Below are positions 49,501 through 55,500 of a stretch of DNA of 64,000 nt, piece after piece. The stretch lies in NCBI RefSeq assembly GCF_965641715.1, contig NZ_OZ282453.1; one strand, given 5' to 3'. This DNA comes from Escherichia coli (GTDB lineage: Bacteria; Pseudomonadota; Gammaproteobacteria; Enterobacterales; Enterobacteriaceae). Each line of letters begins with the position of its first letter. The first letter of the stretch is position 1. Position numbers: made by a program.

Positions 49501-52500
49501 AGGGATAACGCTGATCATCCGTGCGGTCATCGCCTGATGCGACGCTGACGCGTCTTATCATGCCTACAAAATATGCCCGAATCGTAGGCCAGATAAGGCG
49601 CTTGCGCCGCATCCGGCATATAGCCGAGTAGAGGCAAAATTACTCTTCCCGGCCTTTACCCATACTTTTTTGGTCTTCATCCGGATAGTGTTTTTTTAGA
49701 TATTCCAGGACGTTTTTATTGACCTTATGTTGGGTATACACCCACCCTTTCCAGTAATCAGGCTGGTCCAGGTAAACTTCTGGCGGAATGGTGAAATCAG
49801 AAAGCGTTAACCATTCGGCTAACAGATCGGGGTTTCGTTTCTGTATCAACTGCAACAGCATAATCAGCGACATGGCAGAGGCAGGAGCCGTACTATCGCC
49901 GCTTAAATACTTCCACACTGTCGACCGGTTCGAACGAAAAAGGATCGGTAGCAATGCCCGGTCCAGATTCATTTCATTAAAAATCTTCTCAAATTCATTC
50001 ATTTAAATTTTCCTGCCTAGCGTAAACCTCTTAAAAATTGAGATTTATCAAAGAAACGCATTTTAGCACACATCAGGAACCGCTTCACGTTTAGTCCAGA
50101 AACAGAATTTATTTCGCTTATCAAAACAAGTCTTTACTCTTTTTTACGCTAAAATAGCACAAAATGATTTTCAAAATTATTTACTTAAGAAACCAATTCG
50201 GTTTCTTATAGACAGTGTTTACGCTTACACAAGACAAAAACGCGCTTTACATCACACAAATGGCGGCGTAGATTTCGATTAAATTGCAACGCAAATTAAC
50301 TCCAATAGAAATATTATTGGTTTCTATTAGAAACCAAAATAAACTTAATTTGATCGAGAAAAAATAAATGAAATCTGTAAAGTTGTCTTTACTGGCAGTC
50401 GTTGTTGCTACCATTGTGAGCCCATCTGCTTTTGCAGATGATACGGTTGAAGCGGCAGCGACAGAACTGACAGCGATTCACCCAGGTATGTCTCATGATG
50501 AAATCGATCAAAAAATCAATCGCTTCATGATTCGGACAGGTAATACAGAAGCCGCGCAAGATTACCTGTTTTCTCATGGATATATGGACCCACAGACAGG
50601 CGATAATATTTACCCTGCCAGTACAGCCGTACAGACTGACAGCAACGTCACCGACCAAAACCAGGCTGATCGCGACGCGGCGCAAGATACCGCAATTCAG
50701 AACGCACACAATATCGCAAGCATTGCGGCGGCAAATGCAGATGACGCCAAAAAAGCGCTTACCACTGCGCAATCTGCAATTGATGCGAACAAGGGAGCTA
50801 TTGCTGATACTCAGAAAGATGTCGCAGATGTTAAAGCAAGCGCCGCTCATGCCAACACAAACGCCAATACCGCCCTGATGAATGGCCTGAAACTCTCCGG
50901 TGCCGTGAGCGACAACAAAAACCAGATTGAAAAAAACAGCTCCTCTATTGCTGAACAGCAGGAACAGATGGCGTTAAGTGAGCAGAACCAAATACATCGC
51001 GATGCCGCACAGGACTCGTCAATTCAGGATGCCCAGCACTCTGCTAACTGGGCTTCGCTTAAAGCCGATGACGCGCACCATGCCATTATGGTGGCGCAAA
51101 CGGATATCGACGCCAATAAGTCGGCCATTTCCGACACACAAAAAGATGTTGCCGCTGTCCGCACCGATGTGAGTGCAATGAAAGATGATGTCGCAGATGT
51201 TAAAGCAAGTGCCGATCATGCCAACGCGAATGCTAATACCGCGCTGATGAATGGCCAGAAACTTTCCGGTGTCGTCAGCGACAACAAAAACCAGATTGAA
51301 AAAAACAGTACGGCGATTACCGAACAGCAGGAACAAATCACTGCCACGCAAAAAACCGTTGCCGCCACGGGTGATGTAAAGACCGCTGCTCGTTATCAGA
51401 GCATGATTAACGCTCTTCAGACAGCCACTGCTGATGCGCAACAATCACAGTCTGAAGCCCAACAAACGCAGATTACAGAGCAACAGAAGCAGATCGCAGC
51501 CACAGAAAAAACGGTCGCTGCAATTGGCGATCCCCAGTCAACTGCGCATTATCAAAAGATGATTAATGCCAAACTGACGGCGCAAAATGAAGCCAATGAA
51601 CGTTCAACCGCTGATCAGGAGCAGAGAATTAATGAACTGGCTTCCAATGTCGCGACGCAAGAGCAAATCGATAGCGTGCAATACGGTGAACAAATTCGAA
51701 ACCTTGCGCAAGACTCGGCCCAGGCACATGAGCGAATCGAAAGTCTGACACAAGATTCTGCCCAAACGCACCAGCAGTTAACAAACACGCAAAAACGTGT
51801 TGCAGATAACAGCCAGCAAATCAATTCGCTCAATAACAACTTCAGTTCGTTGAAACACGAAGTGGAAGATAACCGTAAAGAGGCTAATGCGGGTATTGCG
51901 TCAGCCGTCGCTATTGCTTCACAGCCTCAAGTTAAGACAGGTGATTTTATGATGGTGTCTGCCGGGGCGGGTACATTCAACAATGAATCTGCGGTATCTG
52001 TCGGTGCTTCGTTTAATGCTGGAATTCATACGGTAATTAAAGCGGGAGTCTCTGCGGATACACAATCTGATTTCGGCGCGGGTGTCGGCGTGGGGTATTC
52101 GTTCTAATTTTAATAGCAATTTCTTATTATACTCTAAATAATTCGAGTTGCAGCAACTTGAAGTATGACGGGTATAGCAATATTCCGCAGTTTATTTAAG
52201 GTTAACAATGATGAATAGCTCCATTAAATCGTTTTCCCTGCTGGCGGTTATATTACTGGCTGGCTGTAGCTCACCCGCTTCCCGCATCGCAGATTGCCAG
52301 GCGCAGGGCGTCAGCCATGACACCTGTTATCTCGCAGAACAGCAGCGCCAGACGGCTATTTTAAGTACTTCCGAAGCGCAGGCATTTAAAAATGCAGAAG
52401 CCGCACAACATGCCCAGGCGGCAAAGAAAGCCATTTATAAAGGATTTGGCATGACCTTTAGAATGAGCAGTAAAAACTTTGCTTATCTCAATGATTCATT

Positions 52501-55500
52501 ATGTGCAATTGATGAAGACAATAAAGATGCCACTGTTTATCAGTCAGGTCTGTATAACGTCATTGTTTATCATCACACAGGAAAAGTCGCCTTAATGAAA
52601 GAAGGCCAGTTTGTGGGTTATTTAAAATGAAGGAACAAAGGAAAATACCCCTGACGCATATTATGATTATCGGTGCGTTTATTTTTGCCTTCTTGCAAGT
52701 AGTATTATTAGCCTCCCTGGTTCACGCTGTGAATGTTAACAATGAAATCCAGGAAGGCTTATTTCAGTCGGGGCGCATTATGGTAGAAAGTTTGCAGCAT
52801 ATTCTTTCGGTGCAAACGGGAATTAACTGATTTTCACCCCGCCCGATGATGACAGCAGCCGGAGAGATTTTCGATAATCGGGCAGTCGGCGCTGTCATCA
52901 CCGGGGCAGGCATTCGCCAGCGCCAGTAGCTGGTTGCGCATAGATTGCAGTTCTTCGATATGCCGTTCGATCTCCGCCACCTTCTCCAGCGTACGACGTT
53001 TGACGTCGGCACTGTGACGCTGCGGGTCGTTAAACAGATTCACCAGCTCGCCGCTCTCTTCCAGGTTAAAGCCCACCTGGCGCGCCTGGCGCAATAAGGT
53101 CAATTCGTTGAGATGCTGCTGCGTGTAGGTTCGATAACCATTTTCGCTGCGCATCGGCGGCGTCACCAGCCCCTTCTCTTCATAGAAGCGAATGGCTTTG
53201 CTGGTCAGGCCGGTAATTTTTGCTACATCGCTAATGTTCATCGTTCGCGCAACGCCTCCTGTGCTTTGTTAAAGGGTTTCAACAGATAATCCAGCACGCT
53301 TTTTTTGCCGGTGCGGATATCGACCGTCGCCACCATACCGGGGAATATCGGAAACTGCTGTTTGCTTTTGTTTTCCAGATGGTTGCTGAAAGTGCGAATG
53401 TACACCCGATAGTAATAAACATCGCGCCGCACTTCATCCTGAACGGTATCCGGTGAAATCACCGCCACTTCCCCCGGCAGACCACCGTAGATGGAGTAAT
53501 CGTAGGCGGTTATTTTCACCAGCGATTTTTGCCCCGGATGGATAAACGCCACATCGCGCGGGGAGATTTTTGCCTCAATCAGCAGTTGCTCATCCAGCGG
53601 CACGATGGTCATCAGTTTACCACCGGGGGCAATGACGCCGCCAACTGTGGTGACGTCAATATCCTGAACAATGCCACGAACTGGCGCAGTAAAGTTGAGC
53701 CTGGTGAGGGAGTCTTCACGCCCACGGATCACCGAACGCTGGGTTTCCACTTCCGCATTGGCTTTCGCTAACTCTTCCCGCGCCTGAACGTAGTATTGCG
53801 TGCGCACGTCGCTGAGTTTGTTTTCCAGTTCATTGGCCTGGCGTTGCAGGCGCAGTACTTCGACGCTGCTCGCTGCCCCCTGTTTTACCAGCGGCTGGGT
53901 CATCGCCAGTTCGCGATTGACCAGACTGATCCCCTGCGTCAGCCCGGTGGTGGCTTTGTTCAACCCGTCGCGGCGAGTGTTGTACAACGCCGTTTCCGAC
54001 TCGATAAGTTCGGGGAATTTATTCAGTTCGTCAGGGAAGACCAGCGGTTTATTGCTCACTTCCGCCCGCAGCCGCGCCGAGGTTGCCAGCGCCGCGTACA
54101 GCCGCGACATCGCTTCCTGGACGTCGGATTCCGTTTTGGTGCGGTTAAGCTGCGCCAGCGGCTGGCCCTGTTCGACAATATCGCCAACTTTCACGTCGAG
54201 ATGATACAGAATTCCGCCTTCCAGCGACTGCACCACCTGTTCGCGCCCGGAGGGTTCTACCGTGCCGCTGCCGGTGGTGACTTCATCAAGCTGGAAGTAC
54301 CACGCCCAGCCGAGAAAGCAGAGCAGCATCACAGAGGTAACACGTACCGCCAGCGCCGAACGCGGCAGGCGGGGTTCAGTCAGGCCACGGTTATATTGCA
54401 GTTGTCCGTTCATGCGGCAGACCCCTTATTCTTCTCCTGCAACACCACCCGTCGCGCCGTGGGTTCGCCCTGTTCACGCAAAATGGCCTCTTTCGCGCCG
54501 TCCATCACAATCCGCCCCTGATCCATCACGATAATGCGGTCCACCAGTTGCAGCATCGCCGTGCGGTGGGTAGCGACGATCAGCGTGCGATGCCCAATCC
54601 ACTGTTTCAGTTGTTCGATTAAATGCGCTTCTGCCATTTCGTCCAGCGAGGCGCTGGGTTCGTCGAGCAGCACGATATTGGGTTGAGAGATAAGTAGCCG
54701 CGCCAGCAGCAGCGTTTGCCGCTGGCCACCAGAGAGGCCAAATCCTCCTTCCTGAATCATGTAGTTGAGACCGTTTTTCTGCTTCTGCACAAAGGGCAGC
54801 GCTCCGCTGAGGGTTAACGCGCGTTCGATATCTTCATCGCTGGCTTCCGGCATCCCCATGGTGAGGTTTTCCCGCAGCGAACCAAAGAACAGTCGCCCGG
54901 TCTGGCTGAGTAGCCCCATGTCTCGCCGCAGATCTGCCGGATCAAGCTGCCCGATACTGATGTTATCCAGCAACACCTGCCCCTGCTGGGCGATACGCAT
55001 TCCGGCGAGCATTTGCAGTAGCGTCGATTTACCCGCGCCGTTGCGCCCGAGAATGGCGATTTTCTCTCCGGCCTGAATGTGGAGTTTGCCGATCGCCACA
55101 TCGGCAATCTTCTCTTCTTCGTCGTAATAAAAGATAGCGTTGCTGAACTGATAATTACCGTGCAGCACCGCTTTATGCACCAGTTTGCCGTGTTCCGGCT
55201 GATCCACGGGGCGCTTCATCAGTTCATCAAGGCCGTTACGTGCTACTTTCGCCTGCTGCCAGCGCGAGAGCACGCCGGATATCTGCGACAGCGGCGCGAT
55301 GGTGCGCGAAGCCAGGATCGTCGTCCCGACCAGTGCGCCGGTGGTCATGTCGCCGTTCATCACCATAAAGCAGCCCACCAACAGCACCACGACGTAGACG
55401 ATGGATTGCACTTCCTGGGTCCAGGTGAGCAGTAGCCCGGTGAGAAAACGTTGCTTCATGCTGATGGACGAGGCCACGTCGTTGGTGTGATTCCACTGAT

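What the first reader, a model, noticed from the sequence alone, without database searches (positions are those of the whole stretch)
49538..52833. 3.3 kb accessory island between ybbJ and cueR with a YadA-type adhesin, lipoprotein and small membrane protein
In K-12, ybbJ and cueR are adjacent. Here a REP element is followed by a divergent 120-aa HTH-like gene, a long AT-rich promoter region, a 579-aa protein with signal peptide, coiled-coil stalk and YadA-like anchor, then a lipoprotein and a 67-aa membrane protein with overlapping start/stop. The lipoprotein may be an export helper, analogous to lipoproteins that assist surface display of trimeric autotransporters. The low GC and REP boundary suggest horizontal acquisition.
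Basis: partly seen in the sequence, partly recalled or inferred. Interest (0 to 1): 0.65.

Follow-up and report, generated by a model that had tools for sequence, protein, structure and literature searches.

The report
OI-29 trimeric autotransporter cassette, long-stalk allele
This 3.3-kb insert is the known E. coli accessory island OI-29, and its main gene, published as the transcription factor "GmrA", has the sequence of a surface-anchored trimeric fibre protein, here in a rare long form, so the published role needs re-testing.

Summary
Window 49538-52833 sits exactly between the stop codons of ybbJ and cueR, which abut with 0 nt in K-12. It holds a REP element, a divergent 120-aa gene, a 365-nt AT-rich promoter region, a 579-aa protein (signal peptide, heptad-periodic stalk, YadA anchor), a lipoprotein and an ATGA-coupled 67-aa membrane protein.

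It is not new. It is O-island 29 of EHEC O157:H7, found in about 26% of complete E. coli genomes. Mapping the published primers shows that the YadA-anchor gene is z0639, published as "transcriptional activator GmrA". I found no DNA-binding domain in it.

The window carries a rare allele: two 123-aa stalk modules, seen in 4 of 5,426 genomes. The autotransporter gene is an allelic replacement (dS about 1.0 against O157, versus 0.03-0.11 for its neighbours).

The lipoprotein is unrelated to the known helpers SadB and TpgA. It still lies directly downstream of headless autotransporter genes in 12 of 26 species across several genera. The 120-aa protein is an XRE-type HTH by transitive profile evidence.

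In Rahnella, Ewingella and Yersinia relatives, the autotransporter's signal peptide carries a translated HTH-like extension, which is unexplained.

Overall: a known kind with moderate interest.

The parts
49538..49639 (.). Left edge of the island: REP/BIME element(s) directly after the ybbJ stop codon
   Evidence: Sequence read. Sub-threshold Rfam naRNA4 (REP-derived) matches at 49498-49654. This segment hits many places per genome and a plasmid. It is absent from the K-12 junction.
49640..50002 (-). 120-aa cytoplasmic protein, orthologue of z0640. N-terminal ~60 aa look like an XRE/Cro-type HTH; the C-terminal half is specific to this family.
   Evidence: ORF. It is 99% identical to the O157 protein with dN/dS 0.13. 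Pfam gives only sub-threshold XRE-type hits. A profile of the family finds 34 relatives among 1.84 billion representatives; of the 13 most distant hits scanned, 8 match Pfam HTH_3 at E<=1e-3. The AF2 model is poor (pLDDT 56).
50003..50367 (.). 365-nt AT-rich divergent control region (31% GC)
   Evidence: Mean column identity is 85% across E. coli, E. whittamii and Pseudocitrobacter. Four AGAAAC motifs are invariant.
50246..50274 (+). Sigma-70-like promoter (TTTACA-17-TAGATT), the candidate promoter of the autotransporter operon
   Evidence: Pattern scan (promoter count not above shuffles). Its weight comes from sitting in the best-conserved intergenic block, retained in Pseudocitrobacter. Function is inferred.
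50187..50207 (.). Palindrome 1 (AAGAAAC-N7-GTTTCTT), a candidate operator
   Evidence: present at the same position in the window, O157, E2348/69 and O145 alleles. Function is inferred.
50319..50335 (.). Palindrome 2 (GGTTTCT-ATT-AGAAACC), 33-49 nt upstream of the start codon; a candidate operator or 5'-UTR hairpin
   Evidence: O157 and E2348/69 have TGTTTCT-TAT-AGAAACA, so the outer base pair changes on both arms. Function is inferred.
50368..52107 (+). 579-aa headless trimeric autotransporter, a type-B long-stalk allele of z0639/'gmrA'
   Evidence: ORF. Pfam YadA_anchor. The gmrA deletion arms flank, and the cloning primers encode the ends of, the orthologous O157 CDS. The C-terminal 254 aa are 74% identical to the O157 protein.
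50368..50436 (+). Sec signal peptide, residues 1-23 (MKSVK / LSLLAVVVATIV / SPSAFA, cut before DD)
   Evidence: Read from the translation: positive n-region, 12-residue hydrophobic core, A-x-A at -3/-1. No predictor was available.
50437..50592 (+). About 52-aa N-terminal domain that would sit at the distal tip of the fibre (DTxEAAATELxAIxxGMSxxEIxQKIxRF...)
   Evidence: The motif is shared by the type-A and type-B alleles and by a Pseudocitrobacter faecalis autotransporter. It matches no Pfam family. It is the most divergent segment between allele classes (50% identity; dN 0.44).
50818..51186 (+). One 369-nt (123-aa) stalk module, present here and absent from the O145:H28 allele; the first of two tandem modules
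   Evidence: Direct repeat D1 at 50818-50969 / 51187-51338, 88% identical, 369-nt spacing. In-frame 123-aa gap against O145. The two-module form occurs in 4 of 5,426 genomes and the one-module form in 28.
51364..51423 (+). Second in-frame length difference (20 aa) relative to the O145 allele
   Evidence: Alignment.
51925..52104 (+). YadA-like membrane anchor (residues 520-579): four beta-strands per chain of a 12-stranded outer-membrane barrel
   Evidence: Pfam PF03895, E=4.1e-10. Anchor-region sequence matches to solved anchors: AtaA 2.4e-6 (query residues 485-575), Hia 1.3e-3 (485-578). The last 100 residues are 88% identical between allele classes; anchor-segment (last 90 residues) dN/dS is about 0.07.
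52208..52630 (+). 140-aa lipoprotein, orthologue of z0638: lipobox LLAG|C20, Ser at +2, a helical hairpin with conserved Cys30/Cys40, then an 8-stranded beta-barrel domain (residues 75-139)
52627..52830 (+). 67-aa single-pass membrane protein, translationally coupled to the lipoprotein (ATGA overlap)
   Evidence: ORF. Hydrophobic stretch at about residues 10-33 (KD maximum 2.7). Conserved with the same 4-nt overlap in Escherichia and Pseudocitrobacter. dN/dS 0-0.09. No family match.

Best explanation
**Identity.** The region is O-island 29, a four-gene cassette inserted between ybbJ and cueR.

**The main gene.** It encodes a short, headless trimeric autotransporter (type Vc secretion). The expected pathway, by family analogy, is:
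- The precursor is exported by Sec and cleaved after Ala23.
- Three C-terminal anchors form one outer-membrane barrel.
- The Ala/Gln/Asp/Thr/Asn-rich passenger emerges as a trimeric coiled-coil fibre, with a small N-terminal domain at its tip.

**Variation.** The gene exists as anciently diverged allele classes that are swapped by recombination inside an otherwise near-identical cassette. Its stalk length changes by gain or loss of 123-aa modules. The window carries the longest form (two modules). This pattern is what is expected of an exposed surface antigen.

**The other genes.** The lipoprotein and the 67-aa membrane protein are transcribed after the autotransporter gene and are under strong purifying selection. 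I infer they are envelope partners of the fibre (biogenesis, anchoring or stabilisation). The divergent 120-aa XRE-type HTH protein is the likely local regulator, acting on the conserved AT-rich control region.

**Shown versus inferred.**
- Shown: identity with OI-29 and with 'gmrA', the domain architecture, the population genetics, and the conserved gene order.
- Inferred: surface display, the partner role of the lipoprotein, and regulation by the HTH protein.
For: - **Site and gene order** match the O157:H7 locus. The island is defined against the 0-nt K-12 junction.
- **gmrA is the autotransporter gene.** The lambda-Red arms for gmrA flank exactly the CDS annotated 'YadA family autotransporter adhesin'. 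The cloning primers encode MKTVNVAL... and ...GVGYSF.
- **Anchor:** Pfam 4.1e-10; AtaA and Hia anchors.
- **Stalk:** a 3.5-residue hydrophobic period is the strongest signal in residues 113-196, 225-336 and 421-532. The passenger has almost no Pro and no Cys.
- **No DNA-binding domain.** Only sub-threshold coiled-coil matches to SMC/Rad50/DndD, at about 20 bits against cut-offs of 245-1087.
- **Allelic replacement.** Against O157 the autotransporter gene has nucleotide identity 70%, dS 1.03 and dN 0.27. The 120-aa, lipoprotein, small, ybbJ and cueR genes have identity 97-99%, dS 0.03-0.11 and dN/dS 0-0.16.
- **Module indels**.
- **Conserved linkage.** The YadA-anchor gene, lipoprotein and often the 120-aa homologue stay together in Escherichia, Pseudocitrobacter, Rahnella, Yersinia, Ewingella and Enterobacter; in Lelliottia a more divergent homologue (only the N-terminal domain aligns) also follows a YadA-anchor gene. 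They sit at different chromosomal sites, and the linked lipoproteins fall in at least 3-4 clades.
- **Expression.** All three O157 genes are expressed and co-repressed on HeLa contact (Table S3 of PMC5826968).
- **HTH protein.** The 120-aa profile reaches XRE HTH proteins.
Against: - **No adhesion phenotype.** The same paper found no adherence defect for the island deletion, and the protein has no recognised head domain.
- **Localisation and trimerisation were not tested.** No trimer prediction could be run.
- **The lipoprotein link is not obligate.** About half of its homologues stand alone, and it resembles neither known helper.
- **The small downstream partner differs between clades**.
- **The 120-aa protein's HTH** rests on transitive, not direct, matches.
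Confidence: 0.8

Rival explanations
1. The product of the 579-aa gene acts, as published for its O157 allele GmrA, as a cytoplasmic transcriptional activator. It would bind the fliA promoter and switch on flagellar genes, making the YadA-like features incidental.
For: PMC5826968 reports the following:
- Deletion of gmrA lowers motility, flagella number and fliA/fliC/motA transcripts, and complementation restores them.
- His-tagged protein shifts a fliA promoter fragment but not an rpoS control.
- ChIP-qPCR shows enrichment.
- The same phenotype is seen in eight strains, and K-12 becomes more motile when given the gene.
Against: - The protein has a cleavable-looking signal peptide and a significant YadA anchor.
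- Pfam and NCBIfam find no DNA-binding domain. The only nucleic-acid-related hits are sub-threshold coiled-coil matches to SMC/Rad50/DndD. That may be how a 'DNA-binding' label arose (inference).
- The constructs used place a His tag in front of the signal peptide and a 3xFLAG directly after the terminal Phe of the barrel. Both should disturb export and assembly and leave a non-native cytoplasmic pool (inference).
- A factor that recognises one conserved promoter would not be expected to exist as alleles with 65% overall identity, 50% identity over the N-terminal 90 residues, and 123-aa in-frame indels, while its neighbours are 97-100% identical.
Confidence: 0.08
2. The autotransporter is a genuine surface fibre, and the reported motility effect is real but indirect. 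Its presence in the envelope, or contact through it, would feed into flagellar regulation, for example through envelope-stress or surface-sensing pathways.
For: This reconciles the genetics in PMC5826968 with the secreted-protein architecture. The cassette genes are strongly repressed on host-cell contact, so they are tied to a lifestyle switch.
Against: No pathway is identified. Surface adhesins and flagella are usually regulated in opposite directions (general knowledge). The EMSA and ChIP data would remain unexplained.
Confidence: 0.3
3. The lipoprotein and the 67-aa protein have an envelope function of their own and only travel with the autotransporter gene. One possibility is a periplasmic or outer-membrane inhibitor or binding protein, as with PliC/MliC-type beta-barrel lipoproteins.
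For: - 13 of 26 two-domain homologues have no YadA-anchor gene within 2 kb upstream; one of these lies next to ecotin.
- The C-terminal domain alone occurs in other uncharacterised enterobacterial proteins.
- The small downstream partner differs between clades.
Against: - Pfam MliC does not match even at E<=10.
- Linkage to a YadA-anchor gene in 12 of 26 species, across at least 3-4 lipoprotein clades and down to about 40% identity, is far above chance for an immediate neighbour.
Confidence: 0.3

Closest known systems
O-island 29 of E. coli O157:H7 EDL933 (z0638, z0639/gmrA, z0640), Yang et al. 2018, PMC5826968
   Same: - Same insertion site between ybbJ and cueR, and the same gene order and orientation.
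- The 120-aa, lipoprotein and 67-aa proteins are 98-99% identical to the O157 proteins (97-100% across the four alleles compared).
   Different: - The autotransporter gene is a different allele class: 65% identity over aligned residues and dS about 1.
- It is 241 residues longer: about 240 residues of stalk, residues ~90-325, built around two 123-aa modules that the O157 allele lacks.
- The literature treats z0639 as a regulator. The sequence says autotransporter.
Headless, mostly coiled-coil trimeric autotransporters such as Neisseria meningitidis NadA (Oca family); comparison from my own knowledge, not tested here
   Same: - Signal peptide, a small N-terminal tip region instead of a YadA-type head, a long coiled-coil stalk and a YadA-like anchor.
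- Allele classes that differ by in-frame stalk segments.
   Different: - No detectable sequence similarity outside the anchor.
- NadA has no dedicated downstream lipoprotein. It is controlled by a distant MarR-type repressor and a phase-variable repeat. No such repeat was seen here.
SadA/SadB of Salmonella (autotransporter plus helper lipoprotein), PMC3953254
   Same: An enterobacterial trimeric autotransporter encoded next to a lipoprotein gene on the same strand.
   Different: - The gene lies downstream, not upstream.
- Ser at +2 predicts outer-membrane sorting, whereas SadB is described as an inner-membrane trimeric lipoprotein.
- The fold is a helical hairpin plus a beta-barrel.
AtaA/TpgA of Acinetobacter (BamE-like, peptidoglycan-binding partner), PMC12523085
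   Same: A periplasm-facing accessory protein encoded beside the autotransporter gene.
   Different: No BamE or OmpA-like domain by Pfam or NCBIfam, and no BamE-like structural neighbour.

Membership tests
Trimeric autotransporter (type Vc secretion) | C-terminal YadA-like anchor (Pfam PF03895) | tested here: met
   E=4.1e-10, residues 520-579, full model length. AtaA 2.4e-6 and Hia 1.3e-3.
Trimeric autotransporter (type Vc secretion) | N-terminal Sec signal peptide | tested here: met
   By inspection only: MKSVK, then a 12-residue hydrophobic core, then AFA before D24. No predictor was available.
Trimeric autotransporter (type Vc secretion) | Coiled-coil stalk leading into the anchor | tested here: met
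   A 3.5-residue period is the best period in residues 113-196, 225-336 and 421-532 (power 3.2-8.9). Residues 309-420 are less regular.
Trimeric autotransporter (type Vc secretion) | Trimer in the outer membrane with a surface-exposed passenger | not testable with these tools
   Needs fractionation, heat-modifiability and surface labelling. The structure tool predicts monomers only.
YadA-type adhesin in the narrow sense | YadA-like head or Hep_Hag/HIM/YadA_stalk repeats, and demonstrated adhesion | tested here: not met
   No head or stalk Pfam family appears in this protein or in any of the 17 cassette autotransporters. The published island deletion shows no adherence defect.
OI-29 / z0639 (gmrA) orthologue | Same locus and flanks, with homology to the O157 gene | tested here: met
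   same site; the C-terminal 254 aa are 74% identical. It belongs to a different allele class.
Transcriptional activator (as GmrA is described) | A recognisable DNA-binding domain in a cytoplasmic protein | tested here: not met
   Neither Pfam nor NCBIfam finds one, in this allele or in the O157 protein. Only sub-threshold coiled-coil matches to SMC/Rad50/DndD appear. A signal peptide and an anchor are present.
SadB-type helper lipoprotein | Homology or fold similarity to SadB, and inner-membrane retention | tested here: not met
   [not shown]
TpgA/BamE-like partner | BamE-like domain with or without an OmpA-like domain | tested here: not met
   No Pfam or NCBIfam match, and no such fold neighbour.
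MliC/PliC lysozyme-inhibitor lipoproteins | MliC family signature plus the 8-stranded barrel fold | tested here: inconclusive
   [not shown]
XRE/Cro-C1-type HTH regulators (the 120-aa protein) | HTH_3-like domain | tested here: inconclusive
   Direct Pfam hits are sub-threshold (E 0.01-0.12). Of the 13 most distant profile hits scanned, 8 match HTH_3 at E<=1e-3. The AF2 model is too poor to use.

The most novel reading that the evidence does not exclude
The cassette would be a previously unrecognised accessory system dedicated to headless trimeric autotransporters. Its parts are an outer-membrane lipoprotein (a disulfide-stapled helical hairpin plus a beta-barrel), a clade-specific small partner and an XRE-type regulator.

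A 2026 global survey looked only at autotransporters that have a YadA head. It concluded that further helpers are unlikely to exist, so it would have missed this family.

In the Rahnella/Ewingella/Yersinia branch the autotransporter precursor also carries a translated HTH-like domain of about 40 aa. It sits in front of the hydrophobic core and the A-x-A site of its signal peptide. Export of the fibre could therefore release a membrane-tethered DNA-binding fragment and couple adhesin secretion to transcription. Such coupling could be the ancestral reason why a gene of this family affects flagellar expression.
Probability: 0.15. Interest if true: 0.8.

Novelty: new member of a known kind. Interest (0 to 1): 0.5.

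Why it matters
- **A literature problem.** A protein listed in reviews as an island-encoded transcription factor of EHEC (GmrA) has the sequence of a secreted, outer-membrane-anchored fibre. Either the assignment is wrong, or there is an unexpected link between a surface protein and flagellar control. Simple experiments can tell these apart.
- **A surface-antigen pattern.** The gene behaves like a variable surface antigen, with allele replacement and modular stalk length, in about a quarter of E. 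coli genomes. Carriers include O157:H7, O145:H28, EPEC and ExPEC lineages. This matters for typing and for antigen choice.
- **A candidate partner.** The conserved lipoprotein is a candidate third type of autotransporter-associated envelope protein.

Tried and rejected
- **SadB or TpgA analogy for the lipoprotein.** No sequence, Pfam, NCBIfam or fold support.
- **Lysozyme-inhibitor (MliC/PliC) membership.** Only a generic barrel resemblance.
- **AFDB fold search of the lipoprotein.** It returned only uncharacterised relatives.
- **Weak NCBIfam lipoprotein hits.** Hits to TraV and to 'XAC1346 family secretion chaperone' are far below cut-off and cover the signal peptide region. A literature search for XAC1346 found nothing.
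- **Structure of the 120-aa protein.** The model was too poor (pLDDT 56) for a fold search. Profile searches against solved structures gave nothing significant, both for this protein and for the HTH-like extension. A profile-profile comparison of the two was not significant.
- **Known RNAs.** Only REP-related sub-threshold Rfam matches.
- **Phase-variable repeats upstream.** Only a 1.9-copy 12-mer was found.
- **Terminator between the autotransporter and lipoprotein genes.** Only a weak hairpin overlaps the stop codon, so I treat the genes as one operon with possible attenuation (inference).
- **Palindromes as conserved operators beyond E. coli.** They are not conserved in E. whittamii or Pseudocitrobacter.
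- **Papers describing z0639 as an autotransporter.** None found. All five papers that mention it follow the GmrA assignment. The EAEC 042 genome paper counts two trimeric autotransporters without naming this locus in the text.

Full report
**1. Observation**

- ybbJ 49079-49537 (+)
- a 120-aa ORF 49640-50002 (-)
- a 579-aa ORF 50368-52107 (+)
- a 140-aa ORF 52208-52630 (+), with lipobox LLAG|C
- a 67-aa ORF 52627-52830 (+), whose ATG overlaps the preceding TGA
- cueR 52834-53241 (-), confirmed by NCBIfam at 5.9e-93

In a K-12-lineage genome, ybbJ ends at the base before the cueR stop codon. The insert is therefore 49538-52833 (3,296 bp).

The segment after ybbJ is a REP element. It is visible in the sequence, gives sub-threshold REP-derived Rfam matches and has many copies per genome.

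The island is 44.7% GC against 52.0% for the window. The 365-nt divergent intergenic region is 31% GC.

**2. Identity: O-island 29**

Megablast against 5,426 complete E. coli genomes finds the flanks everywhere, but the lipoprotein/anchor segment in only 1,416 genomes (26%). The O157:H7 locus has the same four genes at the same site. They are annotated 'hypothetical', 'YadA family autotransporter adhesin' (338 aa), 'lipoprotein' and 'hypothetical'.

A literature search for z0639 led to Yang et al. 2018 (PMC5826968). That paper describes OI-29 (z0638, z0639, z0640) and names z0639 'GmrA', a transcriptional activator said to bind the fliA promoter.

I mapped their primers onto the O157 locus:
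- The gmrA deletion arms lie at 4407-4445 and 5463-5500. They flank exactly the YadA-family CDS at 4446-5462.
- The z0638 arms flank the lipoprotein gene, and the z0640 arms flank the 120-aa gene.
- Their cloning primers encode MKTVNVAL (the signal peptide) and GVGYSF (the last barrel strand).

So the published regulator is the autotransporter. None of the papers that cite it mention this.

**3. The 579-aa protein**

*Domain evidence.* Pfam finds only the YadA anchor (E=4.1e-10, residues 520-579). The C-terminal ~95 residues (485-578) align to the solved AtaA and Hia anchors.

*Signal peptide.* The N-terminus is a standard signal peptide, with A-F-A before Asp24 (by inspection).

*Passenger.* It is rich in Ala, Gln, Asp, Thr and Asn. 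It has four prolines and no cysteine. A 3.5-residue hydrophobic period is the strongest signal in residues 113-196, 225-336 and 421-532.

*No head domain.* No head or stalk-repeat Pfam family appears here or in 16 related cassette autotransporters; two of those carry collagen repeats instead.

*No DNA-binding domain.* NCBIfam gives only sub-threshold coiled-coil matches to SMC, Rad50 and DndD, for this allele and for O157 GmrA. Scores are about 20 bits against cut-offs of 245-1087. I suspect, but cannot show, that a hit of this sort is the 'DNA-binding domain predicted by CDD' in the paper.

**4. Allele structure**

Compared with O157 GmrA:
- The C-terminal 254 residues are 74% identical.
- The N-terminal ~85 residues are about 50% identical.
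- About 240 residues are extra.

The extra part is two tandem 123-aa modules (direct repeat at 50818-50969 / 51187-51338, 369-nt period).

The O145:H28 allele (436 aa) is 98% identical to the window protein. It lacks one whole module and a further 20 residues, both in frame.

The two-module form occurs in 4 of 5,426 genomes and the one-module form in 28.

Nei-Gojobori estimates, window against O157:

| Gene(s) | Nucleotide identity | dS | dN or dN/dS |
|---|---|---|---|
| Autotransporter gene | 70% | 1.03 | dN 0.27 |
| 120-aa, lipoprotein, small, ybbJ, cueR | 97-99% | 0.03-0.11 | dN/dS 0-0.16 |

The autotransporter gene has therefore been replaced as a unit by a very old allele inside a young, conserved cassette. 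Divergence is greatest at the N-terminal tip (dN 0.44) and least in the anchor (dN/dS 0.07). This is the pattern of an exposed, selected surface molecule (inference by analogy). It is hard to square with a factor that reads one conserved promoter.

**5. The lipoprotein and the small protein**

*Sequence and structure.* The lipoprotein has no Pfam family and no sequence relative among solved structures. With a 23-sequence alignment, AF2 gives two parts:
- a helical hairpin that carries conserved Cys30 (nearly invariant) and Cys40 (in all but one sequence)
- a confident eight-stranded barrel at residues 75-139 (pLDDT 83-92)

All homologues have Ser, Thr or Gln at +2. By the E. coli sorting rule this points to the outer membrane (inference).

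*Gene-order survey.* I scanned one genome per species with the lipoprotein alignment, which gave 49 loci. An anchor HMM and ORF analysis showed:
- 26 matches span both domains.
- 12 of these have a YadA-anchor gene ending 47-330 nt upstream on the same strand.
- One more has it within 2 kb.

The linked cases cover Escherichia, Pseudocitrobacter, Rahnella (three species), Yersinia aleksiciae, Ewingella and Enterobacter; Lelliottia adds one, through a homologue in which only the N-terminal domain aligns. They sit at different chromosomal sites. For example, the cassette lies between fetA and qmcA in Pseudocitrobacter, and next to a serine recombinase in P. faecalis. On a neighbour-joining tree the linked lipoproteins fall in at least 3-4 clades, interleaved with stand-alone ones.

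The linkage is therefore old and maintained, but not obligate.

*The 67-aa protein.* It is a single-pass membrane protein, conserved with the same 4-nt overlap only in the Escherichia/Pseudocitrobacter clade. The Rahnella clade has a different, soluble 70-81-aa ORF in the same coupled position.

*Context from the literature.* A 2026 survey of autotransporter neighbours considered only proteins with a YadA head. It found only SadB and TpgA. This headless family lay outside its scope.

**6. The 120-aa protein and the control region**

Direct Pfam hits are all sub-threshold and all to Cro/C1/XRE-type HTH families. I built a profile that includes distant homologues from Rahnella, Yersinia, Serratia and Ewingella. 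It finds only 34 relatives among 1.84 billion representatives. Of the 13 weakest hits scanned, 8 match Pfam HTH_3 at E<=1e-3, and they align to profile positions of about 5-60. This is transitive support for an XRE-type HTH.

Homologues sit divergently upstream of the autotransporter gene in about ten species.

The intergenic region is well conserved:
- A TTTACA-17-TAGATT promoter is retained in Pseudocitrobacter.
- Four AGAAAC motifs are invariant.
- Two palindromes are conserved within E. coli; one shows a change on both arms.

Regulation of the operon by this protein is an inference.

In O157 all three genes are expressed, and all are repressed on HeLa contact (Table S3).

**7. An unexpected feature in relatives**

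In Rahnella, Ewingella and Yersinia aleksiciae the cassette autotransporter ORF begins with about 40 residues that look like a homeodomain-type HTH (...NKSELARYFGVSASTIRRVL). These are followed directly by the hydrophobic core and an A-x-A site.

Evidence that it is HTH-like and translated:
- Pfam gives consistent sub-threshold HTH hits: CENP-B_N at 1.7e-3 and HTH_28 at 4e-3.
- Substitutions between genera are concentrated at third codon positions, for example 7/4/22 and 10/9/28. The extension is therefore translated.

In one metagenomic locus the same HTH-plus-signal segment is a separate 95-aa ORF. It lies in front of a 946-aa autotransporter with its own signal peptide, followed by the lipoprotein.

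The E. coli alleles lack the extension: an in-frame TAA precedes the start codon. I cannot explain this feature, and I list it as the basis of the most novel reading.

**8. Verdict**

The island is already described, and annotation pipelines already call its main gene a YadA-family protein.

What is new here:
- A rare long-stalk allele.
- Evidence that the autotransporter gene is an exchanged, hypervariable allele.
- A conserved lipoprotein/HTH cassette shared across Enterobacterales.
- A clear conflict between the sequence and the published function of GmrA.

Noticed in passing
window 53238-63979 (- strand), running off the window end: Directly beyond cueR lie an HlyD-family adaptor (391 aa), a type I secretion ABC transporter (720 aa) and a giant ORF (>2,467 aa). 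The giant ORF is annotated in a related genome as the BapA-related adhesin SiiEA. K-12 keeps only a 98-nt frameshifted remnant of the adaptor gene next to cueR, so K-12 appears to have lost this system by deletion.
   Followed up: partly
L001 4547-6286 and L014 2229-3968 (E. coli TB06052 and ET350): RefSeq annotation starts the identical 579-aa autotransporter ORF at an internal codon (379 aa, WP_370599039.1). This removes the signal peptide and the N-terminal domain. The full ORF is intact in both genomes.
   Followed up: yes
L021 4734-, L023 4204-, L025 3750-, L035 4136-, L026 4989-: Autotransporters of the same cassette in Rahnella, Ewingella and Yersinia aleksiciae carry an HTH-like extension of about 40 aa, in frame and upstream of the signal-peptide core. 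Substitutions are biased to the third codon position, so it is translated. E. coli alleles lack it.
   Followed up: partly
L066 4989-9031: In a metagenomic enterobacterial contig near qmcA/nfeD homologues, the HTH-plus-signal segment is a separate 95-aa ORF. It is followed by a 946-aa autotransporter with its own signal peptide and by the lipoprotein homologue. It could be a remnant of an allele replacement or an independent small membrane-tethered HTH protein.
   Followed up: partly
L006/L016 4138-6671 and L003 1090-6707: In Pseudocitrobacter the same four-gene cassette sits between fetA and qmcA, not between ybbJ and cueR. In P. faecalis it lies elsewhere, with two tandem YadA-anchor genes (633 and 608 aa), about 1.3 kb from a large serine recombinase gene.
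   Followed up: partly
L012 4189-4868, L010 2189-2867, L013 4354-: The ybbJ-cueR junction holds further variable content in other strains. There is a frameshifted ORF of about 680 nt, either next to OI-29 (E2348/69) or alone (strain WP5-S18-ESBL-09). O145 has a longer intact hypothetical gene there. The junction is a hotspot.
   Followed up: no
L039-L059 and L062 (except L043, L045, L057), around position 6000: Aeromonas, Pseudomonas, Buttiauxella, Atlantibacter and others encode lipoproteins of 63-102 aa (mostly 63-69). These consist only of the N-terminal Cys-x9-Cys helical-hairpin domain of the cassette lipoprotein, without the barrel. They give weak sub-threshold TraV/TrbK-like hits.
   Followed up: partly
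L021 6408-6653, L023 6408-6629, L025 6408-6650, L032 1317-1529, L029 6492-6707: In the Rahnella/Serratia clade a conserved soluble ORF of 70-81 aa (MKK.HTDQFKHLP.EQQ...ATLSKF...VSW) lies immediately downstream of the lipoprotein gene. It overlaps the lipoprotein stop by ATGA in four loci and starts 5 nt after it in Serratia silvae. It replaces the 67-aa membrane protein of E. coli and has no family match.
   Followed up: partly
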